NCBI GenBank assembly: GCA_964464605.1
Contig: CAYXJN010000006.1
Location: 124,001 to 188,000 of the forward strand
DNA from: an uncultured Ignavibacteriales bacterium
GTDB lineage: Bacteria; Zixibacteria; MSB-5A5; GN15; FEB-12
Reading direction: 5' to 3'
Length of the DNA: 64,000 nt
Positions 9,001 through 12,000 of the stretch are shown here, piece after piece (positions within the stretch are counted from its first letter, which is position 1; each line of letters starts with the position of its first letter). A program made the position numbers.

Positions 9001-12000
9001 TTTCGCTTTAGCCTTCGCGATAAAAGTCCCGCTCTTTCCATTACATACCTGGCTGCCGGATGCGCACGTGGAAGCCCCTACCGCCGGTTCGGTGATTTTG
9101 GCCGGTGTGCTTTTGAAGATGGGAACGTACGGCTTTATCCGTATCTGTATGCCGATGTTTCCGGATGCGACCGTCGCGTTCATGCCGTGGATTGCGGTCT
9201 TATCCGTTATCGCGATTATCTATGGCGCGCTCGTTGCGATGGTGCAGAAGGATGTTAAATCCCTCGTCGCCTTTTCATCCGTTTCACATATGGGTTTTGT
9301 CATGCTCGGTCTGTTCGCGTTCAACATGCAAGGGATGCAAGGCGCGATTTTGCAGATGATCAACCACGGCGTTTCAACCGGCGCGTTGTTCTTGTTGGTC
9401 GGAATGATTTATGACCGCCGCCACACGCGTATGATCGATCAATTCGGCGGCATTGCCAATGTCATGCCGATTTACGCGACCTTTTTCCTGATTGTCACGC
9501 TTTCCTCGATCGGCTTGCCGCTTACTAACGGGTTTGTCGGCGAGTTTTTGATTTTGTTAGGCGCGTTCAAAACCAATATGTGGTACGGCGCTTTAGCCGC
9601 GACCGGTGTTATTCTTTCGGCGGCTTACATGCTCTGGATGTTTCAGCGGGTGATTTTCGGTAAAGTGACGAACCCTGAAAATGAAAAACTGCTCGATATC
9701 AACTGGCGGGAAAAAGTCATTCTTATACCGCTCATTGTGTTGATTTTCTGGATCGGTATTTATCCTAAACCGTTCTTTGACCGTATCGAACCGGCTGCTC
9801 AGCGCGCCTTGACCGAAGTCGGTCAGGCGGCCTCGGTTGATATCAATGATCAGTTCGAGATTACCAAAAAGGGTACGCTCACCCAAACGGATACGGAAGA
9901 GGCCGGCAAATGAGCGCGGAACTGATTATCTATACCAAAACCGGCTGTCCGTATTGTGCGGCGGCAAAAAAGCATTACACGAATTTAGGAAGAACGTTTA
10001 CGGAAATTAATATCACCGAGAACCCGTCGGAGAAAGCGAACCTGCTCAAACTGAGTGAAGGAATGAGCATGGTACCGGTTATCGTCGATAACGGCCAGGT
10101 GCAGCTTGGCTTCGGCGGCGGGTGAGGGTTTTGATAAAAGACGCGGCGGTCGTCGCGTGAGGAACTAAGAAAAGCGAAATGGATTATTCATTAGCCGCAT
10201 TTAACTGGAGCCTGATCGCTCCTGAAATCGTACTTGCCGTATTCGCCTCGGTGATTTTCATCTGGGCGGCGCGCCCGTTTATGTACAAATGGGGCGTCGA
10301 TATTGCATTAGTCGGTTTGCTGACTTCGCTCGGTTTTGCCATTAGCCAATGGAATTTCGGCGGCACCGGTTTCTACAATATGGTGCTGGTAGACAACTTC
10401 GCGGCGGCATTTCGGATTCTGAGTATTATCACGTCGATTTTGGCGGTGATGATGAGTTACCGGTTCCTGCAGGTGAAGGGGATAGACCGTCCGGAATTTT
10501 TCGGGCTGATGCTCATTGCGACGCTCGGGATGCTCGTGATGGTCAGCAGCAGTGATTTGATTGTTATGTTCCTCGGGCTTGAAATCATGTCGGTTCCGTT
10601 ATACGTCTTGGCCGGGTTTGCCCGCCGTTCGCTCGCCTCAAATGAAGCCGGTATCAAATACTTTATTATGGGAGCGTTTGCTTCGGCCTTTTTGCTTATG
10701 GGAATTGCCTGCGTTTTCGGTGCAACCGGCAGTACCGACTTAAAAGTGGTTTTGAGCAGAGCGTTATTTATGGCGATGTCAGCTACGCCAGAGAATCCGA
10801 GCCTCTTGGCCTATCTCATAGCCGGTGTGGCGTTGATATTGGTCGGCTTTGGATTCAAAATTGCCGCTGTACCGTTTCATACCTGGGTGCCGGATGTGTA
10901 TCAGGGCGCACCGACACCGATTACGGCCTTTTTCTCTGTCGGTCCAAAAGCGGCCGCCTTTGCCGTGTTGCTTCGCATTTTCACGTTTGGTTACACAAAT
11001 ATTCCGGTTATCGCTCAGGCGTTTTGGATACTCGCCGTGTTAACGATGTCGATCGGTAACATTCTCGCACTGAGGCAAAGCAATGTGAAGCGAATGCTTG
11101 CCTATTCATCGATTGCCCATGCCGGCTATATCCTCGTTGCCATGACCGCCGGAGGGCCGCAGGCGGTCTCCTCAGCGCTCTTTTATTTAGTGGCCTACGC
11201 GATGTTCAACCTCGGCGCGTTCGCGATTCTGGTGCTCTTAGAAACGCGCACAGGCTGTAAATCGGAGTTCTCCGAGTTACGCGGCATGGCGGCATCGCAT
11301 CCGTGGCTGGCCGCACTGCTTGCGTTGTTCATGTTCGGCCTGTCCGGTTTTCCGCCCTTGGTTGGATTCTTTGGAAAATTCTATGTCTTCAGCGCCGCGG
11401 TGCAGAACGGTTTTATCTGGCTCACGGTCATCGGCGTACTGAACTCCTTTGTCTCTGTCTATTATTACTTACGCGTTGTCAAAGCCTGTTATTTCGAGAA
11501 GGCAGAAGGGTACTTCCCGCCGGTCACGGTCAATCCCTTTATGGCGATCGTGCTGGTTATTACCGCCGTCGGAACGCTCGCGTGGGGGATATTCCCGCAG
11601 CAGTTGCTCGATTTTTCACAACAGGCTATTTTCGCTCTACGCTAAAATGATTCCATCACCGATTTTGTATATGCATGTGAAAGGTTAGGCATGGTGCCTG
11701 TAGAACCGGTTTCCGTATCAGTGTGGATTTGGGTAAGTTTTACCGTCTTCATCCTTTTGCTCTTGCTGGTCGATTTAGGGTTGTTCCAACGCAACGCGCA
11801 CGCGGTTTCCGTAAAAGAATCTCTGGCCTGGACATTTGTTTGGGTTGTTCTCGCCTGTGGATTCGGCGGCATTATGTACTGGTGGCACGGTTACCACGCC
11901 GCGCTTGAGTTCTTTACCGGGTATATCATAGAGTACTCTCTCAGTGTCGATAATCTGTTCATTTTCATTCTGATTTTTACCTATTTCAAAGTTCCGGACA

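What a model noticed while it worked through the whole genome (the two positions that open the first line are those of the whole stretch)
9910..10134. A selenocysteine glutaredoxin-like gene is a fixed member of the complex I operon, between nuoM and nuoN
g01662 is called as a 71-aa glutaredoxin but reads on through its TGA: ...GFGGG-U-G-F-stop (74 aa; N-terminal CPYC plus a selenocysteine two residues from the end; NCBIfam NF041212, Uxx-star family). Its start overlaps the stop of nuoM by 4 bases and nuoN follows 44 bases after its true stop. This place inside the nuo operon is kept throughout the order and much of the phylum and is almost unknown elsewhere, which ties a selenoprotein family of unknown role to respiratory complex I.
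Evidence so far: Translation with TGA=U; NF041212 E 1.5e-28. neighbours.tsv: Glutaredoxin next to Proton_antipo_M in 139 of 159 genomes of the order but in only 285 of the 98,100 genomes that have both families. search_genomes: a match in 31 of 45 other Zixibacteria genomes, 29 of them with the in-frame TGA; in 24 of 24 fetched loci the gene lies between nuoM and nuoN and ends G-[GS]-U-G-[FIV]-stop, with CPYC invariant. The 2026 review of prokaryotic selenoproteomes lists the family but holds none of the terms complex I, NADH dehydrogenase or nuo.
(Added by a program. Inside this text positions count along the whole contig: contig position 124,001 is position 1 of the stretch shown here. "Call 12" and the like, gene names such as g00115 and contig names such as C1 are that model's own, and its searches are not shown. 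The text may have been shortened before it was handed on; [...] marks where a part breaks off. The agent that wrote the report below was given it as the finding of a first reader that could run no searches.)

Follow-up and report, generated by a model that had tools for sequence, protein, structure and literature searches.

The report
Selenoprotein redoxin gene inside complex I operon
A tiny glutaredoxin-like protein that carries selenocysteine near its end is encoded between two membrane-subunit genes of the NADH dehydrogenase (complex I) operon in most Zixibacteria, which gives an orphan selenoprotein family a first testable link to respiration.

Summary
Window 9910-10134 (+) encodes a 74-aa Uxx-star protein: CPYC, then G-G-G-U-G-F-stop. 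Its ATG overlaps the nuoM stop by 4 nt, and nuoN starts 44 nt after its true stop. Those 44 nt hold a bacterial SECIS-type hairpin. The genome has selA, selB, selD and tRNA-Sec.

In 81 genomes of the phylum, 56 carry the gene, and all 56 copies lie directly upstream of nuoN. Most genomes have two complex-I-type operons. In the sampled loci the gene was found only in one lineage of them (14 genes in the two operons read in full) and never in the other (11 genes, no nuoEFG, in the one read in full). Lineages without the gene have nuoM and nuoN abutting. One genome keeps a deleted remnant.

Outside the phylum, family members are not nuo-linked. Their variants (CPYS...C-x-x-stop; UPYT...U-x-x-stop) suggest residues 13 and 72 form the redox pair.

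Best reading: a thiol/selenol oxidoreductase that serves complex I and is probably recycled by thioredoxin reductase. The tie to complex I rests on gene order alone. The family is known. The operon link was not found in the held literature, but the two primary family papers could not be read.

The parts
138..8346 (+). nuoF (138-1478), nuoG (1482-3986), nuoH (3983-4981), nuoI (4999-5508), nuoJ (5505-6098), nuoK (6095-6397) and nuoL (6400-8346). nuoA-E lie just upstream of the window.
   Evidence: Pfam and NCBIfam matches. nuoA-E were found in L176, the 12 kb before the window.
8348..9913 (+). nuoM. Its TGA stop (9911-9913) overlaps the start codon of the selenoprotein gene (ATGA).
   Evidence: TIGR01972, 642.7 bits. 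ORF list.
9910..10134 (+). Uxx-star glutaredoxin-like selenoprotein gene: 74 codons plus the TGA stop, followed at once by TAA.
   Evidence: NF041212, 104.1 bits against a cut-off of 66. PF00462 Glutaredoxin, E 3.9e-13. Model pLDDT 88.4 with a Grx fold.
9946..9957 (+). The C13-P-Y-C16 redox motif.
   Evidence: G12, C13, P14, Y15 and C16 are invariant in 31 sequences. C-P-[YFH]-C in 113 of 113 loci.
10123..10125 (+). In-frame UGA read as selenocysteine (residue 72).
   Evidence: Sec machinery is present in the genome.
10126..10167 (+). SECIS-type stem-loop. Upper stem 10141-10147 pairs with 10152-10158, with loop GGUC at 10148-10151. A weak lower stem pairs 10127-10132 with 10161-10166.
   Evidence: Fold. 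Compensatory changes in 5 of 5 predicted pairs. The hairpin is present across relatives and far more often than in shuffles. No Rfam family matches it.
10179..11645 (+). nuoN, the last gene of the 14-gene set.
   Evidence: TIGR01770, 448.3 bits.

Best explanation
The gene is a Sec-decoded member of the Uxx-star glutaredoxin-like family. It is carried as a 15th gene inside the 14-gene NADH:quinone oxidoreductase operon.

Shown:
- It is translationally coupled to nuoM through an ATGA overlap.
- The UGA at codon 72 is followed by two conserved codons, a stop and a SECIS-type hairpin that fills the gap before nuoN.
- The organism has the complete Sec machinery.
- The gene keeps this exact place across many families of the phylum. 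In the loci sampled it was found only in one of the two operon lineages (14 genes with nuoEFG in the two operons read in full).

Inferred:
- The protein is a small cytoplasmic thiol/selenol oxidoreductase.
- Its working redox pair is Cys13 and the C-terminal Sec72, forming a selenenylsulfide, with Cys16 as a resolving or relay thiol.
- It is re-reduced by thioredoxin reductase rather than by glutathione.
- It serves complex I as a dispensable accessory. It would keep thiols of the enzyme reduced, or remove an oxidant made at the enzyme, while made together with the membrane subunits.

Whether it binds the complex stably is open.
For: Gene and recoding:
- Sequence and family assignment.
- 113 of 113 loci have TGA, two codons and a stop, with synonymous variation at the Gly codon.
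- Hairpin in 90 of 100 distinct loci against a mean of 6.7 in shuffles, with compensatory pairs.
- selA, selB, selD and tRNA-Sec are present.

Position:
- 56 of 56 above-cut-off genes in 81 genomes lie directly upstream of nuoN.
- 77 of 80 loci from the species-genome scan have the same arrangement.
- The own genome has a single copy.

Operon type:
- On the NuoN tree all 19 linked rows fall in one paralogue clade of 43 rows. None of the 31 rows of the other clade is linked.
- The linked operon has 14 genes in the window's genome. In G044 its ORF series has the same order and sizes (ORF list only).
- The other operon in G044 is nuoABCDHIJKLMN, without E, F and G.

Purifying selection: mean column identity is 68%, and G12, C13, P14, Y15, C16 and U72 are invariant in 31 sequences.

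Redox pair: family members elsewhere are CPYS...G-C-[TS]-V-stop (3 loci) and UPYT...G-G-T-U-G-V-stop (1 locus). Position 13 is always Cys or Sec, position 72 is Sec or Cys, and position 16 can be Ser or Thr.

Reductant: thioredoxin reductase is present at 366.8 bits against a cut-off of 343.45. No gshB (TIGR01380) and no GshA-type ligase (PF04262) match was found in a genome rated 100% complete.

Precedent: mitochondrial complex I has a thioredoxin-fold accessory subunit, NDUFA2, bound to the NuoG homologue (PMC8762328, passages read).
Against: - The link to complex I is gene order only.
- The gene was lost at least four times on the NuoN tree while the operon stayed. In 20 of 24 gene-less orthologous operons nuoM and nuoN overlap or lie within 5 nt. 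So the enzyme works without it.
- No column in NuoM or NuoN separates operons with the gene from those without it. No partner cysteine stands out: 0 discriminating columns, and the few Cys-enriched columns are not Cys in the window itself.
- Presence of the gene does not track heme-copper oxidases: 44 of 56 genomes with the gene against 18 of 25 without. That gives no support to an oxygen-specific protective role.
- Relatives in other phyla sit in other contexts.
- PF04107-type ligases and other low-molecular-weight thiols were not searched, so absence of a glutathione-like reductant is not proven.
Confidence: 0.5

Rival explanations
1. It is a general cytoplasmic redoxin with no specific business with complex I. 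It landed between two translationally coupled genes and stays there because that place gives steady, respiration-matched expression.
For: The gene was lost repeatedly without loss of the operon. Family members in other phyla are not nuo-linked. No co-varying residue was found in NuoM or NuoN. There is no association with oxidase content.
Against: All 56 of 56 copies in 81 genomes stay at exactly this junction, and no above-cut-off copy lies elsewhere in any of these genomes. In the loci sampled the gene was found in only one of the two paralogous operon lineages. A freely acting redoxin would be expected to move or duplicate over such distances.
Confidence: 0.28
2. It is a metal-, metalloid- or selenium-handling protein. 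The Cys-Cys-Sec triad binds a metal ion or carries selenium or sulfur, rather than cycling as an oxidoreductase.
For: [quoted passage not shown] A TerC/Alx metal-homeostasis membrane protein gene follows nuoN 45 nt downstream.
Against: The motif is a classical CPYC in a glutaredoxin fold. The Cys/Sec exchange at both position 13 and position 72 is the pattern of redox pairs. No metal-resistance genes lie in the operon.
Confidence: 0.1
3. Its main role is cis-regulatory. The short Sec-dependent reading frame and its hairpin couple nuoN translation to Sec decoding or selenium supply, and the protein itself is secondary.
For: The hairpin fills the gap before nuoN. In the predicted fold, its weak lower stem pairs the last codons of the gene with a GGAAC stretch upstream of nuoN.
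Against: The whole 74-aa protein is under strong purifying selection, with 68% mean column identity, and it folds confidently. Gene-less operons couple nuoM to nuoN directly by a 4-nt overlap. The GAGGA stretch lies about 15 nt from the nuoN ATG, which is far for a ribosome-binding site.
Confidence: 0.07
4. The UGA is a plain stop and the product is the 71-aa glutaredoxin that gene callers report.
For: Public gene calls end at the UGA. Of the 99 relatives found, most are 67-73 aa, and most of those that carry a name are called 'glutaredoxin'.
Against: 113 of 113 loci keep two sense codons and a stop after the UGA, with synonymous change at the Gly codon. A SECIS-type hairpin is conserved. The Sec machinery is present, and selA is found in 79 of 81 genomes of the phylum. 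Cys stands at the same position in homologues. NCBI already names one Zixibacteria member a Uxx-star (seleno)protein.
Confidence: 0.03

Closest known systems
Uxx-star family glutaredoxin-like (seleno)proteins (NCBIfam NF041212; subfamilies NF041114, NF041211, NF047338)
   Same: A glutaredoxin fold of about 70 aa with an N-terminal C/U-x-x-C/T/S motif and Sec (or Cys) three residues from the C-terminus. The window's protein scores 104.1 bits against a cut-off of 66.
   Different: It does not reach the cut-offs of the three named subfamilies: 71.5 against 72, 68.2 against 100, and 69.3 against 97. It has a fixed place in the nuo operon, which the sampled members from another phylum lack. The role of the family is stated as unknown or possibly metal-binding in the 2026 review.
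NDUFA2 (B8/N7BM), the thioredoxin-fold accessory subunit of mitochondrial complex I
   Same: A small thioredoxin-superfamily protein attached to complex I, which shows that such an accessory exists (PMC8762328, passages read).
   Different: NDUFA2 lacks the CxxC motif and has no Sec. It binds the NuoG homologue in the N-module and is a proven structural subunit. It did not appear among the listed Foldseek matches of my model. No binding is shown for the Zixibacteria protein.
C-terminal Gly-Cys-Sec-Gly redox arm of mammalian thioredoxin reductase (recalled, not from a call)
   Same: Sec sits in a glycine-rich, flexible C-terminal tail, where it could shuttle electrons between an internal dithiol and a substrate.
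   Different: In that enzyme the Sec pairs with the adjacent Cys, and the tail belongs to a large flavoenzyme. Here there is no adjacent Cys, and the likely partner is Cys13 of the same small domain.
NrdH / YruB glutaredoxin-like redoxins
   Same: Short glutaredoxin-fold proteins without the C-terminal helix, with a ...VPV...GF... strand-turn. NrdH is reduced by thioredoxin reductase (recalled). TIGR02196 YruB scores 50.5 bits and TIGR02194 NrdH 39.1 bits. Structural matches are 1h75, 4hs1 and 4fiw.
   Different: Both scores are below the family cut-offs of 88.55 and 85.75. The motif is CPYC, not the NrdH motif. There is no nrdEF context. The GGG-U-G-F tail replaces the NrdH C-terminal segment.
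Selenoprotein glutaredoxins of clostridia (structure 7c10, cGrx1)
   Same: A glutaredoxin fold, TMq 0.79 and rmsd 1.2 over 65 columns. The native protein is a selenoprotein (recalled).
   Different: There the Sec lies in the N-terminal active-site motif, not in a C-terminal Uxx-stop tail. There is no respiratory operon context.

Membership tests
Uxx-star family (NF041212) | HMM score over the curated cut-off | tested here: met
   104.1 bits against 66, E 3.4e-30. 96.6 bits in the six-frame genome search.
Uxx-star family (NF041212) | Sec (or Cys), then two residues, then stop at the C-terminus | tested here: met
   ...GGG-U-G-F-stop. U-x-x-stop in 113 of 113 nuo-linked loci.
Uxx-star family (NF041212) | Glutaredoxin fold with an N-terminal C/U-x-x-C/S/T motif | tested here: met
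   PF00462, E 3.9e-13. Model pLDDT 88.4. Best Foldseek matches are glutaredoxins with TMq about 0.8.
Uxx-star subfamilies 1, 2 and 3 (NF041114, NF041211, NF047338) | Score over the curated cut-off of the subfamily model | tested here: not met
   71.5 against 72; 68.2 against 100; 69.3 against 97. The nuo-linked group is covered only by the umbrella model.
Bacterial selenoprotein gene | selA, selB, selD and tRNA-Sec in the genome | tested here: met
   selB 320.1 bits, selA 526.1 bits and selD 394.7 bits, all over their cut-offs. tRNA-SeC(tca) found by ARAGORN.
Bacterial selenoprotein gene | SECIS stem-loop shortly after the UGA, with G in the apical loop (the consensus itself is recalled) | tested here: met
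   A 7-bp stem with a GGUC loop, starting 22 nt after the UGA. 90 of 100 distinct loci meet the criterion against a mean of 6.7 in shuffles. Compensatory changes in 5 of 5 pairs. No Rfam model exists to score it.
Bacterial selenoprotein gene | Cys-containing homologues at the Sec position | tested here: met
   Three loci from another phylum end G-C-[TS]-V-stop. None was seen inside the Zixibacteria group.
Complex I subunit or accessory factor | Encoded within the nuo operon | tested here: met
   It lies between nuoM and nuoN, with a 4-nt overlap upstream and 44 nt downstream. 56 of 56 copies in 81 genomes are placed this way.
Complex I subunit or accessory factor | Physical association with the complex (co-purification or structure) | not testable with these tools
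The single binding prediction returned no verdict (see Tried and rejected).
Classical glutathione-dependent glutaredoxin | Full Grx3-type domain with the C-terminal helix, and a glutathione supply in the cell | tested here: not met
   TIGR02181 GRX_bact scores 46.9 bits against 90. PDB glutaredoxins align only to profile positions 1-67, and the protein ends where their C-terminal helix would begin. No gshB or GshA-type match was found in the genome. Other ligase types were not searched.
NrdH-redoxin | Score over the cut-off and an nrd operon context | tested here: not met
   TIGR02194 scores 39.1 bits against 85.75. The neighbours are nuoM and nuoN.

The most novel reading that the evidence does not exclude
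The protein is a true 15th subunit of a bacterial complex I. It would be a stably bound selenoprotein whose flexible C-terminal Sec arm reaches a redox-sensitive site of the NADH-oxidising enzyme and resets or gates it. That would make it the first selenoprotein component of a respiratory complex I, and an independent bacterial parallel to the thioredoxin-fold subunit NDUFA2 of mitochondria.
Probability: 0.15. Interest if true: 0.85.

Novelty: new variant of a known kind. Interest (0 to 1): 0.62.

Why it matters
Uxx-star proteins are a recently named selenoprotein family with no assigned role. Here one subgroup has a fixed genomic partner: the NADH-oxidising complex I. This yields concrete tests: co-migration with the complex, thioredoxin-reductase-dependent activity, and protection of the enzyme from oxidative inactivation.

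The comparison across the family also suggests which residues form the redox centre (13 and 72). That is a testable mechanistic statement for the whole family.

For complex I research, it would be a rare case of a bacterial lineage adding a redox-active accessory gene to the otherwise very conservative 14-gene operon. The repeated natural losses, and the sister operon without the gene, can serve as built-in controls.

Tried and rejected
1. Binding prediction. NuoM residues 82-521, NuoN and the 71-aa table-11 product were submitted, each with a 31-row alignment. It returned 'no answer' with score 0.00. This is not evidence either way. The tail with Sec was not included, and NuoE, F, G and the other subunits were not tried.

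2. Partner residues in NuoM and NuoN. Operons with the gene (80 NuoN and 77 NuoM rows) were compared with 24 without it. No discriminating column was found. Three Cys-enriched columns were found, two of which are not Cys in the window. Kinship confounds this comparison, so I rejected it as evidence.

3. RNA evidence. Two metatranscriptome runs, both from one sample, gave one identical 212-nt contig inside nuoN (10719-10930) and nothing on the selenoprotein gene. The other pieces are about 32-44 nt and come from contigs that mostly run on unlike the window. This gives no statement on transcription of the gene.

4. Rfam. There was no match at gathering scores in the whole window, and only chance-level hits around the hairpin.

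5. Oxygen-respiration correlate. Heme-copper oxidase is present in 44 of 56 genomes with the gene and 18 of 25 without. I rejected the idea that the gene tracks aerobic respiration.

6. Literature. 'Uxx-star' occurs in one held paper only. Its main text has no 'complex I', 'NADH dehydrogenase', 'nuo' or 'Zixibacteria', and no supplement could be read. Searches combining selenoprotein or glutaredoxin-like with nuoM, nuoN or Zixibacteria found nothing relevant. The 2015 complex I phylogenomics paper has no glutaredoxin, thioredoxin or insertion terms. The two primary family papers (Haft and Gwadz 2023; Haft and Tolstoy 2025, 'Novel selenoprotein neighborhoods...') are not held.

8. The careful tree search did not finish. 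The tree cited is the quick IQ-TREE search with SH-aLRT support.
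Full report
**1. What is in the sequence**

Window 9910-10134 on the + strand holds an ORF that ordinary gene calling ends at TGA 10123-10125, giving 71 aa. Read with TGA as Sec it continues for two codons (GGG TTT) to TGA 10132-10134, which TAA follows directly. The result is a 74-aa protein, [16 protein letters not shown]...LGFGGG-U-G-F.

Its ATG overlaps the TGA stop of the upstream ORF by 4 nt (ATGA at 9910-9913). 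The next ORF starts at 10179, 44 nt after the true stop.

The upstream ORF is NuoM (TIGR01972, 642.7 bits) and the downstream ORF is NuoN (TIGR01770, 448.3 bits). The small protein matches NF041212, 'Uxx-star family glutaredoxin-like (seleno)protein', at 104.1 bits against a cut-off of 66. It also matches Pfam Glutaredoxin at E 3.9e-13. It falls below the cut-offs of the three named Uxx-star subfamilies: 71.5 against 72, 68.2 against 100, and 69.3 against 97.

The window begins inside the operon, with nuoF, G, H, I, J, K and L before nuoM. The 12 kb before the window hold nuoA, B, C, D and E. This is therefore a complete 14-gene nuo operon with one extra gene.

**2. Is the UGA really decoded as Sec?**

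- The genome is rated 100% complete in 18 contigs. It has selB (320.1 bits), selA (526.1 bits) and selD (394.7 bits), all over their curated cut-offs, and one tRNA-SeC(tca).
- The 44-nt gap before nuoN holds a hairpin. ACGCGGC (10141-10147) pairs with GTCGCGT (10152-10158) around a GGUC loop, and the loop begins 22 nt after the UGA.
- I read 113 nuo-linked loci: the window, 30 and 5 loci from the phylum search, and 77 from the species-genome collection. At least 11 are duplicates between the two routes, leaving 100 distinct sequences.
- In 113 of 113 loci the first in-frame stop is TGA, followed by exactly two sense codons and a stop.
- The first of those codons is Gly in 110 of 113, using GGA 49, GGT 22, GGC 21 and GGG 18 times. 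The second is Phe in 94 (TTT 49, TTC 45) or Ile in 16. Synonymous change with a kept amino acid is the signature of translation past the UGA.
- In 90 of 100 distinct loci there is a contiguous stem of at least 6 bp, with G among the first two loop bases and the loop starting 14-24 nt after the UGA. Composition-preserving shuffles gave a mean of 6.7 and at most 11 of 100.
- The stems have 84 different sequences. RNAalifold found compensatory double changes in 5 of 5 predicted pairs.
- Rfam has no family that matches the hairpin. The SECIS assignment therefore rests on position, shape and covariation. The consensus I compare it with is recalled.

**3. Distribution within the phylum**

- In 81 genomes of the phylum (80 plus the window's own), 56 have a match over the family cut-off.
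- All 30 fetched loci show nuoN downstream. 29 also show nuoM upstream, and the 30th starts at a contig end.
- Five more loci were fetched and look the same.
- For the remaining 21 genomes, the coordinates of the match abut those of a nuoN on the same contig and strand.
- Thus 56 of 56 copies lie directly upstream of nuoN. No above-cut-off copy lies anywhere else in these genomes.
- A pattern scan of one genome per species, keyed on GCPYCAAA, kept the best 80 of 278 relatives. Of these, 75 have nuoM and nuoN on both sides and 2 are cut by contig ends with the expected gene on the side that remains. The other 3 are not nuo-linked.
- The 77 records carry varied labels (Zixiibacteriota, GN15, 'uncultured Ignavibacteriales', Calditrichaeota, Deferrimicrobium, FCB group). 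Their NuoM is 59-77% identical to the window's, so I take them as one clade. I could not verify their taxonomy.

**4. Two complex-I-type operons**

Every one of the 81 genomes has nuoN, and most have two copies. A NuoN tree of 74 rows splits into two clades of 43 and 31 rows, each with SH-aLRT 99. This is the quick IQ-TREE search, because the careful one did not finish. All 19 rows that have the selenoprotein gene upstream fall in the first clade. None of the 31 rows of the second clade has it.

- The first clade's operon is the 14-gene operon in the window's genome. In G044 its ORF series has the same order and sizes (ORF list only).
- In G044 the second operon is nuoABCDHIJKLMN. It runs from nuoD straight to nuoH, with no nuoE, F or G.
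- That the whole second clade lacks the NADH-oxidising module is an extrapolation from this one genome.

**5. Absences and losses**

The 25 genomes without the gene are not short of Sec machinery, since selA is over its cut-off in 79 of 81 genomes.

In 24 orthologous, first-clade operons that lack the gene:
- nuoM and nuoN overlap or lie within 5 nt in 20;
- the gap is 28 nt in one;
- the gap is 66-93 nt in three.

One of the three long gaps is in G048, a member of the window's own family. Its 79-nt gap still reads ...A-V-G-F-G-S-S-U-G-L-stop followed by a hairpin. Just upstream, a V-P-E-V-M-I start piece lies in another frame. This is an internally deleted remnant of the gene.

G043 shows only a second-clade nuoN in its assembly. 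The tree needs at least 4-5 changes of state. Because the insert is homologous and sits at the same junction everywhere, I read this as one old insertion and several losses. The root is not established.

**6. Outside the phylum**

The three non-linked loci come from Actinomycetes and Thermoleophilia MAGs. They carry ...GGS-U-G-[MI]-stop proteins directly in front of an AhpC-TSA/Redoxin (TlpA-like) gene, next to triose-phosphate isomerase and phosphoglycerate mutase genes.

In a sample of 151 genomes of that phylum:
- 8 reach the cut-off and 14 have E of 1e-15 or better;
- none of the 14 loci has a NuoM or NuoN match within 1.5 kb.

These loci hold informative variants. Three proteins read CPYS ... 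G-R-G-C-[TS]-V-stop, with Cys in place of Sec and Ser in place of the second Cys. One reads U-P-Y-T ... G-G-T-U-G-V-stop, with Sec at both ends and Thr at the fourth motif position. The latter matches the 'UxxT, 2 Sec' entry for family 1 in the review's table.

Across the family, position 13 is always Cys or Sec, position 72 is Sec or Cys, and position 16 may be lost. I infer that 13 and 72 are the redox pair, and that C16 in the Zixibacteria form is a resolving or relay thiol.

**7. The protein**

- An AlphaFold2 model built on 31 sequences has mean pLDDT 88.4. It shows a beta-alpha-beta-alpha-beta-beta core and an ordered tail, with mean pLDDT 79 for the last block and a beta-bridge at residues 72-73.
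- Foldseek places it among glutaredoxins and NrdH-type redoxins. Examples are 3ic4, 7c10, 3grx and 1h75, with TMq 0.72-0.81.
- Profile search of PDB sequences aligns only positions 1-67. The protein stops where the usual C-terminal helix would begin, and the GGG-U-G-F tail has no counterpart in solved structures.
- Public gene calls for the 99 relatives found are mostly 67-73 aa. The named ones mostly read 'glutaredoxin family protein', 'glutaredoxin' or 'glutaredoxin 3', with one 'hypothetical protein'. One NCBI record already calls a Zixibacteria member a 'Uxx-star family glutaredoxin-like (seleno)protein'. The selenoprotein identity is therefore already in annotation.

**8. Likely working and reductant**

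The genome has a thioredoxin reductase over its cut-off (366.8 bits against 343.45). It gave no match to glutathione synthetase (TIGR01380) or to the GshA-type ligase (PF04262). Other ligase families were not searched.

The protein most likely cycles between a C13-U72 selenenylsulfide and the reduced form, at the expense of thioredoxin reductase and NADPH, as NrdH-type redoxins do (recalled). It would pass electrons to a disulfide or an oxidant.

Three facts argue that its client is complex I or something made at complex I:
- its strict co-location with the complex I lineage whose operon carries the NADH module (nuoEFG) in the two operons read in full;
- the translational coupling to nuoM;
- the absence of any copy elsewhere in these genomes.

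Mitochondrial complex I offers a precedent for a thioredoxin-fold accessory, NDUFA2 on the NuoG homologue (PMC8762328, passages read).

Against a strict dependence:
- the gene was lost repeatedly;
- no NuoM or NuoN residue co-varies with its presence;
- its presence does not follow heme-copper oxidases, at 44 of 56 against 18 of 25 genomes.

**9. Novelty and limits**

The family is known and named. In the held literature the term occurs in one paper only. That is a 2026 review whose main text gives the family's role as unknown or possibly metal-binding, and has none of the terms complex I, NADH dehydrogenase, nuo or Zixibacteria. Its supplements could not be read.

The two primary papers on the family are not held. 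One of them is explicitly about selenoprotein neighbourhoods. I therefore cannot exclude that the operon link is already in print.

- the restriction, in the loci sampled, to one operon lineage, which in the operons read in full is the 14-gene one;
- the pattern of losses, with a remnant in one genome;
- the conserved SECIS-type hairpin in the nuoN leader;
- the 13/72 redox-pair inference.

All functional statements are inference from sequence and gene order.

Noticed in passing
Genomes G001-G080; L191 = G044:C1:3148000-3166000: Most Zixibacteria genomes carry two complex-I-type operons. In G044 the second is an 11-gene nuoABCDHIJKLMN without nuoE, F and G, which suggests a different electron donor. 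The window's own genome has only the 14-gene type.
   Followed up: partly
L116 (G048:C3:505876-508482), about 1085-1165 in nuoN orientation: A 79-nt gap between nuoM and nuoN holds an internally deleted remnant of the selenoprotein gene (...AVGFGSS-U-GL-stop plus a hairpin). It is a natural knock-out in the window's own family. This genome also gave no heme-copper oxidase match.
   Followed up: partly
L088, L108, L109; L178-L181: In Actinomycetes and Thermoleophilia MAGs a Uxx-star gene (...GGS-U-G-M/I-stop) sits directly upstream of a TlpA/AhpC-TSA-type redoxin gene with an N-terminal extension. This may be a second conserved partnership for the family.
   Followed up: partly
L177, L182, L183, L184: These loci hold Cys forms (CPYS ... 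G-C-[TS]-V-stop) and a double-Sec form (UPYT ... G-G-T-U-G-V-stop) of the family. The double-Sec gene is also followed by a hairpin.
   Followed up: partly
window 11691-12662 and 12739-14721 (+): A TerC/Alx-family membrane protein (TIGR03718, 441.8 bits) starts 45 nt after nuoN, and a KefC-like CPA2 K+/H+ transporter with TrkA domains follows on the same strand. The Alx model is named for riboswitch control, but the 45-nt gap leaves no room for a riboswitch and Rfam found none.
   Followed up: no
L157, L159 (G070, G077), nuoM-nuoN gaps: Two genomes of one family without the gene have 93-nt and 66-nt gaps between nuoM and nuoN, unlike the 4-nt overlaps elsewhere. These may be older remnants of the insert. 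No reading frame is recognisable.
   Followed up: no
(runs X1-X18): Near-identical DNA of this stretch occurs in contigs of bioreactor, activated-sludge, sludge, aquaculture, wastewater and rhizosphere metagenomes from several studies. Some of these may be the source of the assembly.
   Followed up: no
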